A stretch of 64,000 nucleotides of DNA from Octopus vulgaris. Taxonomy: Eukaryota. The notes under the pieces are model-generated. The model was given only the letters and a program-made list of their open reading frames with translations, did no database searches and was not told the origin of the DNA. Positions 17,392 through 55,234 of the stretch are shown here, one piece after another (position 1 is the stretch's first letter; each line of letters opens with the position of its first letter). The stretch lies in NCBI GenBank assembly GCA_951406725.2, contig OX597820.1:74710001-74774000 (forward strand). Reading direction: 5' to 3'. The position numbers were made by a program, and so were the translations under genes.

Positions 17392-17929
17392 AATGATAAA
17401 TCTCAGAGCGAGTTATAAACAGTAACAGCAACACATCGTGACGTATATTTGCCATTTGAATATGGCTAAACCCTAAGGGTGGATGCTACTGTAGTTTGTA
17501 GCCCCAGGTACTATCAGTATTTGTAAAGGGAAGCCATCCTTCCCGTCTTCAACTTATGATACACACGGACTCGAGTTTCAGGGTATTGACCCGTCATCGG
17601 CGTGTGACAATCATAGTTGTCGATGAGAAGTCAGCTCCCTTCACAAATACATATACTTTTTCCAGTATCGATTGACACTGATATTGAAAAAGTGTAATGA
17701 AACAATGATAAATCTCAGAGCGAGTTATAAACAGTAGCAGCAACACATCGTGACGTATATTTGCCAATTGAATATGGCTAACCCCTAAGGGTGGATGCTA
17801 CTGTAGTTGCTACTGATAGGGCACAGAAAGTGTGTCTATAGCCAGCTGGAGGAGGTGTCCTCCTGGGGCTACAAACTACAGTAGCATCCACCCTTAGGGG
17901 TTAGCCATATTCAAATGGCAAATATACGT
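17392..17929 (-). mobile_element. retrozyme-like hammerhead element R1 (partial tandem + inverted arm)
   Basis: 105-bp direct repeat at 17392/17704 (312-bp period); 68-bp inverted copy 17862-17929 of 17441-17508; internal hammerhead; flanked by (TA)n. Confidence 0.75.
17562..17606 (-). ncRNA. type I hammerhead ribozyme motif (core variant CCGAUGA)
   Basis: CACACG-CCGAUGA-C-GGGU-CAAU-ACCC-U-GAAAC-UCGA-GUC-CGUGUG: 6-bp helix I, helix II, palindromic helix III (ACUCGAGU), GUC triplet. Confidence 0.7.
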
Positions 17930-17991
17930 ATATATATATATATATATATATATATATATATATATATATATATATATGTATGTATACACGC

Positions 17992-18408
17992 TTACTCTTT
18001 TACTTGTTTCAGTCATTTGACTGCATCCATGCTGGAGCACCGCCTTTTTTTCGAACAAATTGACACTAGGACTTATTCTTTGTAAGCGTAGTGCTTATTC
18101 CATCGATCTCTATTGCCGGACCGCTATGTTACGCGGACGTAAACACAATAACATCGGTTGTCAAGCGATGGTGGGAAGACGAATACAGACACACAAACAT
18201 ATACAAACGTATACATACATGCACACACGCTCATACGCACACACACACATAAATATTACGGGTTTCTTTCAGTTTCCGTCTGCCAAGGCTTTGGTCGGCC
18301 CGAGGCTATAGTGGAAGATAGCTGCGCAAGGTGCCACGCAGTGGGACTGAACCCGGAGCCATATAGTTGAGAATCAAGCGTCTTACCACACAACTACACT
18401 TACACCTA
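17992..18408 (-). mobile_element. S1 SINE
   Basis: Reverse complement matches other S1 copies. Confidence 0.9.
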
Positions 18409-19234
18409 TATATAAGGGTAGTTATCGATTCACCCATCTATCCATTTGTCCATCCATCCGCGTAACCATCTGTCCGTTCGTCCATCCATCTATGAATTCA
18501 TCCAACTATGTATGTATGTATATATGTACGTATGTATGTATATATGTATCTATCTATCTATCTATCTCTCCGTATATGCATATACAAACACACTCACACA
18601 AACACACTCACAGGCGCGCACACGTACACATATACACACGCACACACAAACACATTCGCATAGACATATACCAGCAAAATGTACGTATCTTTCTTAAAAT
18701 CATTCGTAAGCCCTAATTTATTATGAAACATCTGTTACATCCTGACAGATACGCATATTCTCAGACGCCCACATTGATATATAGATGTATATGCACATAT
18801 ATAAATATATACCTATACATATTTGTATTTTAATATAATCTGGGTTATAACCTTATACTGTGCTTCCCAAAGTTCCTGTCCGAATCTCGGCTACCAAATT
18901 TTACTGGCTATACGAGAAGAGGAATTGAACAGGAACATATCATTATCAGAACGCAAACGCACGCAGACACACACAAACACACACACACACACACACACAC
19001 ACACACGCACAAACAAACAAACACACAGACACACGCATATAAACACAGACGTACGTGCATACATATACATGTTTTATTTAACTATATTTTTCATCCTATG
19101 GCAGGATAAATGTTTATATACAGTCTTGGCCAAACGTCACTCACCAAAATATTTCACATTTTATTTATCAATTATTATTTCGCCTTTGTGGAAAATAAAC
19201 GAAATCATATTATTATCATTATTATTATTAATAT

Positions 19235-19797
19235 TATCATTGTGTGATAGAACAGTGGATGCAAACAAAGTGACACTGAGATACAGATATACGAAGCCCA
19301 GCATGCCCATCATTACTACCCGTCTGATAAGGGTACATCGGGCACATGCATCACAACCATATGTGCGCGACATAGTTTTCTCATATCAAGATAAACAGCA
19401 CATGATCTTGCAGGTTGGGCCCAGTAACAATTTTCTTCAGGTCGAATAGCCCATCCCGATCAAAAGGTCCCTGAATGAGGGATGTTTAAGGATGATGAAC
19501 AAAATACCCATATTTCCAAAGGCGAATATCCAACCTCCAAATAATTCCTCTCAACACATGGCTATAATGCTCCCCCACTACTTCTGCTCGTGATCAGGGA
19601 CGCACATATCGTTAGCCAATAAGTGACGTGTTCATCTGGTTAAGGTCAAACATCTGACAAGCAAATCTGTGGTATTGAGCAGAATATTTGTTGTAGCCCA
19701 TCTTTTATACGAAGACAAAACAATGTACATAACACTTCCAATCAGTTAAGATGTGAAACCAAGTGAGCCACTGTCTGGTACTGCATCAAGTAGATTT
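19235..19797. mobile_element. unclassified ~560-bp insertion bounded by (TAT)n on both sides
   Basis: Higher-complexity block between TATTATCATTATTATTA and a long (ATT)n run; no recognisable protein; single copy in window. Confidence 0.35.
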
Positions 19798-20413
19798 ATT
19801 ATTATTATTATTATTATTATTATTATTATTATTATTATTATTATTATTATTATTATTATTACTCATGCGCATGTACGCGTGCATTCATCATTATTTTATA
19901 TATTTTATCTAATTAGAAAAAGTGGAAGCGTGTCCCACAATTTCGGGGCGTACTAAACTTATTTCGCCCACCCTATATATTTAATAATCATATTATGCTT
20001 CTTTTTTAAACACAAAAAGGCACATTCTCATCTCAGAAATTAATGGCACATGTTTATGTAGAATCTGACAGGTCTGCTGTATTCTGTTGTTAAAAAGTGT
20101 GACGTCGACGGATGTGGTTATGGCGATGAGGTGGTCCAGATGGTTTTTGAGGTGGTAGTTGAAGGAGAAAGGAATTTTATCTGATTTGAACGTTGATACT
20201 AAAATTAGTAATCAGTTAAATTTAGATTAATGCCTATAACCGCACAAAAATGCTGATAGGCACACAAGATCCACATATGTACATTTTTATAGTATGACTC
20301 TTCCTCCCCATATATATATAAATAAACATATGTATGTATGTATCTATCTATCATCTTTCTCTCTCTCTCTCTCACTCTATTATCTATCTATATATAAGTA
20401 TATATATATATAT

Positions 20414-20527
20414 ATATATATGAAAAAACAAGTCAAAATAGAAAATGCTAAAATAATTTTATAAAGAACATGTTCTTTATAAAATTATTTTAGCATTTTC
20501 TATTTTGACTTGTTTTTTCATATATAT
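20414..20527. repeat. perfect spacer-less palindrome (57-bp arms)
   Basis: Arms are exact reverse complements about the 20470/20471 centre. Confidence 0.95.
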
Positions 20528-53014: not shown

Positions 53015-53039
53015 TACGAGTTATATTTATCTTCTATCA

Positions 53040-53375
53040 TTTATTTGCTTCAGTCGTTGGACTGTGGGCATTCTAGGACACCGCACCGAAGGGTTTAGTT
53101 GAAGAAATCGACTCCAGGATTTGATTTTTAAAGTCTAGCACTTATTGTATTGGTCCTATTTTCTGAAACCGGTACGTTACGGTGACATAAACAAACCAGC
53201 ACCGGTTATCAAGTGAGAGACTAACACAAACGGAAAAACACACTCTATTTTCACTCACAAGGCGTTGGTCAGCATGAGTCTATAGTAAAAAGCAAAATGC
53301 TTACGGTGCCACTTTGTGGGTCGGAACCCGAAACGAATTGGTTGCAAAACAAACTTCTTAGCCACACAACCATGC
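53040..53375 (-). mobile_element. degenerate S1 SINE
   Basis: Diverged match to S1. Confidence 0.7.
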
Positions 53376-54340
53376 CCCATGAAATGTTCAAATACACACA
53401 CAGAGACAGACAGACACACACACACACACATACATGCACACACACCCATGCACACACACATGCACACACGTACACGCACGCACACTCACACACACACACA
53501 CATGCACAGACTGAAACATATACATACATTCTTACAAATATACAAGATATAACAAATCGGCCTCATACATCAACCCACGTATTTATTCACATAAATACAG
53601 AATTACCTCTAAATATAACACAATGCATAGATGCTTTTTTTTTAAAAGCCGTTTACACACATATATATCAACATGTGTGTTTCCATACGTTACTATTTCC
53701 AGACACGGTCTGATAGATGTGAGATTACTTACAGACAAATTATATTTACTAGAATTTCGTCGACAATAACCATAAGAAGTCACTGAACTTTCAAAGCGGA
53801 ACTTTCAGAGCAATTGTCATATTTTTCACTAATACAAACTTTGATGGATTTTATTAAATTTCAGTATTTTGTGTTGTTATTATTCTTACTAGATTTGATG
53901 TCTAAAATAAAACATATGAAGTTTTTGTCACGAAATCAATGCAACTTTTCCTCAACATGCATATTATATTTGCATTATTTTATTACTTTCATGGTTCACA
54001 TAGAGTCGTACACGTGTACATGGTGGATATTAACTCGTAGACGAGTGTGATTATCACTGACTAATTATCATATCATTGACGTTAAAGACACAACTGTCAA
54101 CAATGCCGGTGCTGAAATTTAAAATCAATAACAGCCTGCACAACAACACTAAGATTCTCACCTACTAAGCCAAGCAGCATAGAAACAAGCAAGAGCATGA
54201 TCTCCAGCTTTGCAATGAAGCGGGTTTTATAGCAGAATTACATTCTCCAAGGGAGATACTACAGTTCTATATTTGAGAGATGAGGAATTATTTACATTAT
54301 TTACATTTGACGGCTATTTGTCCTCATCTTGTTTGTTGTT

Positions 54341-54386
54341 AACACAACGTTTCGGCTGTTATACCCTCCAGACTTCATCAGGTGTC
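54341..54386 (-). ncRNA. minimal type I hammerhead ribozyme motif
   Basis: GACAC-CUGAUGA-A-GUCUG..CAGCC-GAAAC-GUU-GUGUU. Confidence 0.75.
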
Positions 54387-54717
54387 TTGGGGAAATTTTT
54401 CGAACCTTGGTTCTCACTTCTAAGGTATTTTTCGATGTTTTTGTTGTTGTTGTTTTTTGTTGTTGTCGTTATTATTATTATTATTATTATTATTATTATT
54501 ATTATGATCACTGCTTGGAATCGAACTCGGAATCTTGGGGTTAATAACCTGCGCTCTTAACTCCAAGATTCCGAGTTCGATTCCAGGCAGTGACTTGAAT
54601 AATAATAATAATAATAATAATAATAATAATAATAATAATAATAATAATAATAATAACAACAACAACAGCATCGAAAAATATCTCAGGAATGAGAACCCAG
54701 GTTTGAAAATTCCCCAA

Positions 54718-54763
54718 GACACCTGATGAAGGCTGGTGAGTATATCAGCTGAAACGTTGTGTT
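54718..54763 (+). ncRNA. minimal type I hammerhead ribozyme motif
   Basis: GACAC-CUGAUGA-A-GGCUG-GUGAGUAUAU-CAGCU-GAAAC-GUU-GUGUU; intact core. Confidence 0.8.
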
Positions 54764-55234
54764 AAAAACAAACAAGATGAGGACAAATATCCGTCAAGTG
54801 TAAATAATGTCCAAGGTAGATGTTTAAACAAAGACTAGGGTTCTCTAACTCCAAGCTGTTGGATGGTCGTTGATTCTACAGTGTCAATCCGTCCTTTGAA
54901 AGATTTGTTTTTAATCTTGCAGAATGTCCTCATCTCGAAAAAATTGAAAAAAAGAACTACCCTCCTCAGCCAGCAGGCTTGGTATGGATGCCGGTTTAGT
55001 CGCCGATCGCCTGATTATGCGATAACTTGTACTAGGTTATAAGTTACCAGTCGCAATAAGATTGATGTTTCAGAAATATATATATGCATGCATACCTATC
55101 ACAAAGGTATGTATACATATCTTATTTCTTACTAGTTTCAGAAAGAATTTGAGGCCATGCTGGGGCACTGCTTTCAAAATGATAGATTTCATTCCTGTAC
55201 AGTATCTGGTGAAGAAGTGTTTTGGAATGAGCTA

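What the first reader, a model, noticed from the sequence alone, without database searches (positions are those of the whole stretch)
17392..54821. Ecosystem of hammerhead non-coding retroelements sharing one divergent-inverted insertion signature
Seen: five sequence families carry hammerhead-like motifs (17562, 27692, 32276, 39370 and the S5 copies). In R1, R2 and all four S5 loci a minus-sense arm lies left and a plus-sense arm right, joined at their 5' ends. Two perfect palindromes have a similar geometry, and a PLE RT/GIY-YIG remnant sits in the same window. Inference: PLE machinery amplifies several unrelated self-cleaving RNAs, each insertion leaving a hairpin. If transcribed these would be dsRNA (ADAR or small-RNA substrates) and potential intronic cleavage sites.
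Basis: partly seen in the sequence, partly recalled or inferred. Interest (0 to 1): 0.8.

Follow-up and report, generated by a model that had tools for sequence, protein, structure and literature searches.

The report
tRNA-headed SINE riding Penelope-like machinery
Several short repeats in this animal (likely octopus) DNA carry hammerhead-ribozyme motifs and sit as head-to-head pairs, the already published footprint of Penelope-like retrotransposons; the one part not found in print is a high-copy family with a tRNA-like promoter head that likely borrows Penelope enzymes and whose pooled RNA shows changes that likely reflect A-to-I editing.

Summary
Seven perfect-core hammerhead folds occur, against 0.23 in shuffles, and R1, R2 and all four S5 loci are head-to-head pairs. 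That geometry, a one-sided 30-40 nt tail, ~10 nt target duplications and non-coding passengers are the published footprint of Penelope-like elements (PLEs), so the 'ecosystem' is known; the scan noted similar single cases on other DNA.

Corrections: the 27692 motif looks like the 3' end of a Hydra-clade PLE, 39370 has no inverted arm, and the local RT remnant (Hydra-like) is probably not S5's partner.

Public reads show two 3' ends ~33 nt apart at many AT-rich sites, other 5'-5' joins, and RNA-enriched A>G/T>C changes. At loci A and B each arm holds sequence the other lacks, which favours two templates over fold-back.

Cleavage is unsupported: the hairpin is predicted to abolish the S5 ribozyme fold. 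Partner PLE and Pol III transcription were not shown. Verdict: new variant of a known kind, interest 0.5.

The parts
17392..17808 (-). R1 left arm: one 312-nt monomer (17392-17703) plus a 5'-truncated second copy (17704-17808); 50-nt extension 17392-17441 absent from the right arm; in (TA)n
   Evidence: 97% between units
17561..17606 (-). R1 type I hammerhead, U4C core, helix I 6 bp, palindromic helix III, predicted cut at 17568; Hydra-type build
17809..17928 (+). R1 spacer (17809-17861) and right arm (17862-17928, 98.5% to left arm), no hammerhead
20422..20557 (.). Perfect palindrome P1 (to 20519; 20527 with TA) with a 30-nt one-sided extension, in (TA)n; no hammerhead
23157..23567 (.). S5 locus D (older subfamily): tail-less left arm 23157-23262 (-); full head from 23275 and tailed right arm (+); 9-nt exact target duplication 23146-23154 / 23568-23576
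27661..27740 (-). Single hammerhead, predicted cut at 27696, 35 nt before (TA)n; helices I and III closely match Hydra-2_aMil; likely 3' end of a Hydra-clade PLE
28751..30066 (-). 5'-truncated PLE RT plus C-terminal GIY-YIG remnant with a stop and a frameshift; Hydra-clade features
30909..31948 (-). R2 left arm (30909-31193 and 31898-31948), about one monomer, split by a cluster of ordinary SINE copies; its hammerhead is decayed
31951..32379 (+). R2 right arm, 1.2 monomers of ~354 nt, hammerhead core 32281, predicted cut 32317; arms ~81% alike
39370..39408 (+). Minimal hammerhead (core 39375) in a single-copy pseudo-LTR-like stretch, downstream of a 58-nt tandem repeat (38900-39128); no inverted arm
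40582..41053 (.). S5 locus A: tailed, truncated left arm to 40728 (-, dead core); full right arm 40726-41053 (+): head with A box 40733 and B box 40778, (AAT)n, hammerhead core 40956; 3-nt overlap at the join; 11-nt duplication with 1 mismatch
41840..42189 (.). Perfect palindrome P2 (to 42101; 42109 with TA) with an 80-nt one-sided extension, in (TA)n; no hammerhead
45358..45942 (.). S5 locus B: tailed left arm 45358-45505 (-, intact core 45471); 89-nt copy of upstream flank 45041-45127 at 45506-45594; full head from 45596 and tail-less right arm (+, G5U core); no target duplication found
54260..54810 (.). S5 locus C: tailed left arm 54260-54561 (-) and tail-less right arm 54558-54810 (+), both with a truncated head, repeat and intact core (54381, 54723); 4-nt overlap; 12-nt duplication with 1 mismatch

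Best explanation
These loci are head-to-head insertions with a one-sided tail that were likely made by the enzymes of more than one Penelope-like element (PLE) clade, and S5 is a high-copy SINE-like family with a tRNA-type promoter head that is likely transcribed by Pol III and likely copied by a PLE. Shown: the S5 build (head, (AAT)n, minimal hammerhead, two 3' ends 33 nt apart), the 5'-5' geometry, 9-12 nt duplications and many genomic copies. Inferred: a GIY-YIG/RT dimer cuts both strands of AT-rich DNA. Each free 3' end primes a cDNA on a passenger RNA, one at the tail start site and one at the inner site. The two cDNAs grow towards each other and join by short overlaps or filler. R1 and R2 are 312- and ~354-nt retrozyme-type monomers, likely Hydra-clade passengers, while 27692 and 39370 are likely truncated PLE ends. 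Read-through host transcription would give a self-contained hairpin that ADAR likely edits and that is predicted to unfold the S5 ribozyme, so cleavage of host RNA is unlikely. The hammerhead is likely a relic of the captured PLE end that may act only in dimers.
For: Tail on one arm only in 4 of 4 S5 loci. Duplications in 3 of 4 (that score occurs in 1.6% of 3000 random pairs). In one search, loose ends pile at 54260 and at 54287-54294 in 4 of 4 data sets, mostly with mixed AT-rich flanks, and RNA depth halves across the tail. In 5 of 5 opposite-strand joints among the 15 joints shown (24 not shown), the short side reaches one of these ends, which implies 5'-5' joins elsewhere. The predicted cut lies 86 nt from the tail end; in Anolis PAc the cut is at +26 and initiation at +111-118, and both strands are cut and extended (PMC11167929). 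A and B boxes at tRNA spacing occur 3 times, all in S5 heads, against 0.02 in 100 shuffles; 5 of 5 heads are attached to the hammerhead part. In A and B the left arm has the tail and the right arm has the head, so neither can be a copy of the other. Ordinary SINE families in the window (20, 12 and 5 BLAST pieces) form no joined head-to-head pair. A>G plus T>C make up 28 of 65 and 33 of 70 variant places in RNA against 8 of 34 and 7 of 36 in contigs. Helix I and II pair probabilities fall to 0 in the whole-locus fold of C.
Against: No autonomous PLE sharing the S5 3' end was found (no genome is held), and the only local PLE is Hydra-like, with another hammerhead build. The head misses Rfam tRNA and default ARAGORN; it passes only at relaxed scores (1 of 3 at 80, 3 of 3 at 70; shuffles 1% and 7.7%). 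Pol III transcription is untested, and 96% of laid reads run on into unlike sequence, so they show embedded copies, not S5's own transcript. R2's ends differ by 135 nt with no duplication, and B has none. Loci C and D and both palindromes also fit fold-back copying. The editing signal compares pooled reads with contigs from other samples whose kind is not on record, and the two RNA runs share one study.
Confidence: 0.75

Rival explanations
1. The inverted arm comes from fold-back or self-priming on a single cDNA or an antisense template (the model of Arkhipova et al. 2013), not from two templates. The PLE origin stands; only this step differs.
For: Perfect zero-spacer palindromes P1 and P2; a 7-bp palindrome at the D junction; in C and D one arm is a subset of the other; PMC3846280 argues for self-priming from junction palindromes.
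Against: In A and B each arm holds sequence the other lacks; R1's right side carries a 53-nt spacer absent from the left monomer; PAc extends both strands in vitro.
Confidence: 0.25
2. S5 is not one element: ordinary tRNA SINEs ending in (AAT)n were later hit by PLE end fragments that target AT-rich repeats, giving chimeras.
Against: The same junction occurs in 5 arms at 4 loci; both arms of C carry head, repeat and hammerhead; the duplications flank the whole unit; no solo head occurs in 64 kb; 502 reads of X21 continue from the hammerhead part into the same repeat.
Confidence: 0.1
3. S5 is the 3' pseudo-LTR of a longer autonomous PLE that captured a tRNA-like sequence, and the copies are just truncations.
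For: Most PLE copies are 5'-truncated ends (PMC8557442), and the S5 3' part has pseudo-LTR geometry.
Against: Three full heads (A, B, D) start at the same point; the A box begins at position 8 in A and D, and B has a short insertion before it. This fits a transcript start rather than random truncation.
Confidence: 0.08
4. The motifs form a working set of self-cleaving sites that process host pre-mRNA.
For: Intact cores in 4 of 8 S5 arms and at 27725, 32281 and 39375; the R1 fold lies outside its hairpin (helix I probability about 0.6).
Against: Minimal hammerheads show no monomer cleavage and low dimer cleavage in vitro (PMC4209133); an inverted pair gives one sense copy per transcript; the S5 folds vanish in the hairpin; no place with piled read ends (though fragmented cDNA libraries are weak for this); 1 of 102 screened ORFs has a Pfam hit, a transposase piece.
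Confidence: 0.07
5. The pairs and palindromes are assembly artefacts or chance neighbours.
For: P1 and P2 arms are 100% identical with no spacer, and could not be checked against reads.
Against: S5 arms differ by 9-16% within a locus, carry target duplications, and matching joins occur in independent public reads.
Confidence: 0.03

Closest known systems
Insertion units of endonuclease-bearing Penelope-like elements (PMC3846280, passages; PMC8557442, passages, section 11 and supplement parts 1, 2, 52)
   Same: Head-to-head inverted 5'-truncated copy, optional 30-40 bp tail on one arm, 8-10 bp duplications, AT-rich or (TA)n targets, junction palindromes, mobilisation of other sequence in trans.
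   Different: The described units are coding elements, their pseudo-LTRs, or captured host sequence; in what I read none starts with a tRNA-type Pol III head.
Non-LTR retrozymes, non-autonomous PLE derivatives (PMC7229834, passages; bioRxiv 10.64898/2026.07.22.740005, parts 1-3 of 5)
   Same: R1 and R2: non-coding ~300-350 nt monomers with a type I hammerhead in partial tandem, tied to PLEs.
   Different: Neither R1 nor R2 has two complete hammerheads in tandem. S5 is not tandem and has a Pol III-type head and a minimal hammerhead.
SMalpha / Sjalpha SINE-like elements of Schistosoma (seen only through passages of PMC6765202, and PMC8490949; original papers not read)
   Same: Short non-coding retroposon joining a Pol III promoter to a type I hammerhead.
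   Different: Described as tandem arrays cut into monomers by an active ribozyme. S5 copies are head-to-head pairs with a PLE tail, and the passages read give no PLE insertion signature for SMalpha.
tRNA-derived SINEs (SINEBase definition, PMC3531059, passages; promoter consensus in PMC8969392, passages)
   Same: Short, non-coding, high-copy, A and B boxes at tRNA spacing from a fixed 5' start.
   Different: The simple repeat is internal and the 3' end is PLE-like rather than LINE-derived. Whether S5 equals an octopus family already in Repbase or in Ohshima and Okada 1994 could not be checked; OR2 is called a CORE SINE in PMC4758252 (passage).
Hydra-clade PLEs, including Hydra-1_Obim of Octopus bimaculoides (PMC8557442)
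   Same: The remnant has a C-terminal GIY-YIG, ~710-aa homologues, CxxC and CxH motifs and (TA)n flanks; the 27692 and R1 hammerheads share the clade's helix III build.
   Different: By eye the remnant is a different family from Hydra-1_Obim, and the S5 and 39370 hammerheads are of the minimal type.
Self-paired edited repeats: Xenopus Harbinger and lizard Penelope (PMC5625713, passages)
   Same: A repeat that forms dsRNA without a second insertion nearby and is edited; Penelope is named there as a massively edited repeat in lizard.
   Different: Here the hairpin is made by the insertion step of a SINE-like passenger.

Membership tests
PLE-made insertion | Inverted 5'-truncated copy joined head-to-head | tested here: met
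   6 of 6 paired loci; 5 of 5 opposite-strand joints shown in reads
PLE-made insertion | 30-40 nt tail on one arm only | tested here: met
   S5 4 of 4, 33 nt, two ends in reads; P1 30 nt; R1 50 nt and P2 80 nt are longer; R2 unclear
PLE-made insertion | Short target duplication and AT-rich target | tested here: met
   9-12 nt in 3 of 4 S5 loci; R1, P1 and P2 lie in (TA)n, where duplications cannot be read
PLE-made insertion | 3' end homologous to the pseudo-LTR of an autonomous PLE | not testable with these tools
   No genome held; no S5 match in metagenome contigs
tRNA-derived SINE (S5) | Internal A and B boxes at tRNA spacing near a fixed 5' end | tested here: met
   3 of 3 full heads, against 0.02 in shuffles; A box of locus A equals the consensus, B box has one mismatch
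tRNA-derived SINE (S5) | Head recognisably derived from a given tRNA | tested here: inconclusive
   Rfam none; ARAGORN only when relaxed; best phage match a tRNA-Gln at E 0.6
tRNA-derived SINE (S5) | Short, non-coding, many dispersed copies | tested here: met
   About 300-350 nt with the repeat; 11,322 and 12,382 contigs laid, with mixed flanks
tRNA-derived SINE (S5) | Transcribed by RNA polymerase III | not testable with these tools
   Laid reads are mostly embedded copies
tRNA-derived SINE (S5) | Copied by a partner LINE; 3' simple-repeat tail | tested here: not met
   The repeat is internal and the 3' end and insertion pattern are PLE-type, so S5 works like a SINE but fails the strict definition
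Non-LTR retrozyme (R1, R2) | Non-coding 170-400 nt monomer with a type I hammerhead in head-to-tail repeat | tested here: met
   312 nt and ~354 nt periods, 1.35 and 1.2 units
Non-LTR retrozyme (R1, R2) | Two consecutive units with complete hammerheads (active form) | tested here: not met
   One complete motif per locus
Non-LTR retrozyme (R1, R2) | Circular RNA expression and self-cleavage | not tested
   Reads were laid on S5
Minimal PLE hammerhead (S5, 39370) | Bulged base after A9, long helix II, 4-5 bp helix I, no loop III | tested here: met
   against PMC4209133
Minimal PLE hammerhead (S5, 39370) | Self-cleavage as a dimer | not testable with these tools
   No read-end pile; needs a bench assay
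Hydra-clade PLE (28751-30066) | C-terminal GIY-YIG without CCHH, with CxxC and CxH motifs; short ORF; (TA)n | tested here: met
Hydra-clade PLE (28751-30066) | CxCX5C linker | tested here: inconclusive
   The frameshift falls inside the motif; the best homologue P0001 has it
Hydra-clade PLE (28751-30066) | Placement in the RT tree; RWK and DKT motifs | not tested
   No tree was built; the N-terminal part is missing from the remnant

The most novel reading that the evidence does not exclude
S5 is a true Pol III SINE whose partner is a Penelope-like element rather than a LINE. Each insertion is built from two RNA templates into a ready-made hairpin, so this family supplies ADAR substrate genome-wide and helps explain the unusually high dsRNA content and hyper-editing reported for octopus.
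Probability: 0.45. Interest if true: 0.7.

Novelty: new variant of a known kind. Interest (0 to 1): 0.5.

Why it matters
SINEs are defined as passengers of LINEs. A tRNA-headed family carrying the full PLE insertion signature would extend that partnership to a third retroelement class. Because the passenger is short and has a fixed start, its many copies make an open question testable: whether head-to-head PLE insertions come from fold-back on an antisense template or from two primed templates. It also gives a concrete source for self-contained dsRNA in a lineage known for heavy editing (PMC5625713). The wider claim of the finding, several hammerhead families sharing an inverted signature, restates known PLE biology.

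Tried and rejected
No whole genome is held, so there was no census.

Rfam gave no hammerhead or tRNA hit on these loci; the miRNA hits are microsatellite and hairpin noise. Pfam did not recognise the PLE pieces; identity rests on homologue search and tblastn.

S5 patterns found 0 metagenome loci and 1 viral-contig match that I did not examine. No relative of the RT was found in viral contigs.

The run search listed no holder on record as RNA, which is no evidence either way. The flank of locus C has almost no RNA reads in organism B, so local transcription is not shown.

The core-like motif at 50217 (minus) and three others fail the helix test.

One short motif from each palindrome was absent from the supplement of PMC8557442, and the two octopus Naiad ends shown there do not match by eye, so P1 and P2 remain unassigned.

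My first duplication run used wrong boundaries for B and D; they were corrected.

Searches for a PLE-mobilised tRNA SINE found none beyond SMalpha and the remark that retrozymes may count as a type of SINE. The library lacks most subscription papers and Repbase, and the bioRxiv preprint's supplements were not seen.

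
Full report
Setting. The window is 36% G+C and rich in microsatellites and short repeats. It looks like octopus DNA, but that is my recollection of such repeats and no call names the organism. No genome is held. Of 102 ORFs screened (of 143 listed), 1 had a Pfam hit, a transposase piece, so no host gene was recognised.

Are the hammerheads real? A type I descriptor finds 7 perfect-core hits against a mean of 0.23 in 30 shuffles. The R1 motif needs one core mismatch (4 hits against 0.57). 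The descriptor was written after I had seen the motifs, four of the seven are S5 copies, folding z-scores are weak, and Rfam shows no hammerhead. Independent support comes from published tables. The 27692 motif has the same helix I and nearly the same helix III as Hydra-2_aMil, and R1 has the Hydra build with a pyrimidine pair at the base of helix II. S5 and 39370 fit the minimal PLE hammerhead of PMC4209133 (parts 1-2 of 4 read). So two types are present.

Geometry. R1 is 1.35 copies of a 312-nt monomer on the minus strand, a 53-nt spacer and a 67-nt plus arm; the left end is 50 nt longer and the unit lies in (TA)n. R2 is a ~354-nt monomer with arms 81% alike, a left arm split by later SINE copies, ends differing by 135 nt and no clear duplication. 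The four S5 loci are all head-to-head. The motifs at 27692 and 39370 have no partner arm. As a control, three ordinary SINE families (20, 12 and 5 BLAST pieces) form no joined head-to-head pair; one divergent pair is 925 nt apart and the three closer opposite-strand pairs are convergent.

What S5 is. Each full arm reads head, (AAT)n/(AAC)n, hammerhead, 3' end. A and B boxes at tRNA spacing occur three times in the window, all in S5 heads, against 0.02 in 100 shuffles; the pattern was allowed to fit locus D. The A box starts at position 8 in A and D and matches the consensus printed in PMC8969392. Rfam and default ARAGORN miss the head, and relaxed ARAGORN finds 1 of 3 or 3 of 3 (shuffles 1% and 7.7%). 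A likeness to tRNA-Arg is recalled and untested. All 5 heads are attached to the hammerhead part. One arm per locus has a 33-nt tail: left in A, B and C, right in D. Duplications are 11 nt (A, one mismatch), 12 nt (C, one mismatch), 9 nt (D) and none (B), with boundaries chosen by me within 4 nt. The D arms resemble each other (88%) more than the other loci (76-86%), as expected for one event. Cores are intact in 4 of 8 arms.

Beyond the window. I laid 4 of the 24 listed runs on 54140-54440 at 82% likeness: two RNA runs of organism B from one study, and two contig sets (organisms B and D) whose kind is not on record and which I treat as genomic. One contig of X15 matches this locus and its flank over 147 nt with one difference. 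11,322 and 12,382 contigs were laid, and 7,649 of 12.9 million and 6,227 of 12.0 million reads. Loose ends pile at 54260 and at 54287-54294 in all four sets (24 rows shown, 800 not). Most flank consensuses agree only 40-45% and are AT-rich, except one dominant RNA flank. RNA depth over the tail is about half that just inside it. Of 15 joints shown (24 not shown), 5 change strand, and in each the short side ends at 54260, 54261, 54287 or 54293. I infer these are 5'-5' joins at other loci. No place shows piled read ends.

Editing. A>G plus T>C make up 28 of 65 and 33 of 70 variant places in RNA against 8 of 34 and 7 of 36 in contigs, while C>T plus G>A are 18 and 19 against 15 and 15 (pairwise Fisher p 0.006-0.078, runs not independent). 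Among the 40 rows shown (42 not), I compared the six A>G/T>C rows inside the element that are not consensus differences with nine other minor variants. The six are at 12-26% in RNA and under 0.9% in contigs (ratios 19-209); the nine have ratios 1.4-8.7. Contig depth under-counts rare variants, the samples are not matched, and both strands are read equally, so this is good but not final evidence for ADAR editing. It does not show that the hairpin of a single insertion, rather than neighbouring copies, is the substrate.

The local PLE. The remnant aligns to ~710-aa homologues at up to 58% and shows Hydra-clade features. It differs by eye from Hydra-1_Obim. The 27692 motif lies on the same strand about 1 kb downstream and 35 nt from (TA)n; it is probably the end of this or another Hydra element. 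Hydra enzymes could account for R1 and perhaps R2, P1 and P2. S5 more likely uses a clade with minimal hammerheads.

Mechanism. In vitro a PLE protein cuts and extends both strands of AT-rich DNA, starts at two nearby internal sites that define the tail, and does not need the ribozyme (PMC11167929, parts 1-2 of 4). Priming from both cut ends gives a minus-left, plus-right pair joined at the 5' ends. PMC3846280 proposes self-priming on an antisense template instead (passages). Loci A and B bear on this: the left arm has the tail and the right arm has the head, so neither arm can be a fold-back copy of the other. C, D, P1 and P2 fit either model. When locus C is folded whole, the hammerhead helices drop from 0.13 (helix I) and 0.85-0.99 (helix II) to 0. 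In A and B helix I is already near 0 in the arm alone, and R1's fold is unaffected. Cleavage of host RNA by S5 is therefore unlikely.

Comparison and verdict. Head-to-head copies, tails, duplications and trans-mobilisation, opposite-strand hammerhead pairs 100-700 bp apart, retrozymes as PLE passengers and edited Penelope repeats are all in print. A Pol III promoter with a hammerhead is known from Schistosoma SMalpha. Six searches found no tRNA-headed family with the PLE insertion signature, and a recent octopus repeat annotation does not mention ribozymes (PMC13282606, passages). Repbase and subscription papers were out of reach, so S5 may already be catalogued as an unclassified SINE. The finding as written is known biology, and S5 is a new variant of a known kind. 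Interest 0.5.

Noticed in passing
window 51283-51476 (-): Full-length U2 snRNA-like copy, 79.6 bits, with many mismatches; probably a pseudogene.
   Followed up: no
window 45041-45127 and 45506-45594: An 89-nt copy (86.5%) of upstream flank sits between the two arms of S5 locus B, suggesting templated repair at the join.
   Followed up: partly
window 13540-13584 and 14530-14574: A 45-nt direct duplicate, both copies next to (TA)n, with a hammerhead-like half core near 14478; possibly another PLE end with a detached tail.
   Followed up: no
window 39404-39470 (+): A splice-donor-like site and a pyrimidine tract ending in AG follow the 39370 hammerhead, with a TATA-like box near 39133; S5 locus D has a donor-like site at the matching place. 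Read by eye only.
   Followed up: no
window 5253-5972 (-) and 46487-46807 (+): ORFs that look like LINE reverse-transcriptase remnants by recollection; no Pfam hit.
   Followed up: no
window 12568-12798 (+) and 55583-56278 (+): Mariner/Tc1-type transposase remnants; the first hits HTH_48, the second is recalled likeness only.
   Followed up: no
window 31184-31900: A head-to-tail cluster of ordinary SINE pieces inserted inside the R2 left arm.
   Followed up: partly
window 24530-24668: 13-nt minisatellite of about 11 copies.
   Followed up: no
reads laid on window 54294: One flank dominates the tail-less end in RNA (916 and 565 reads), so one highly expressed transcript carries an S5 copy.
   Followed up: no
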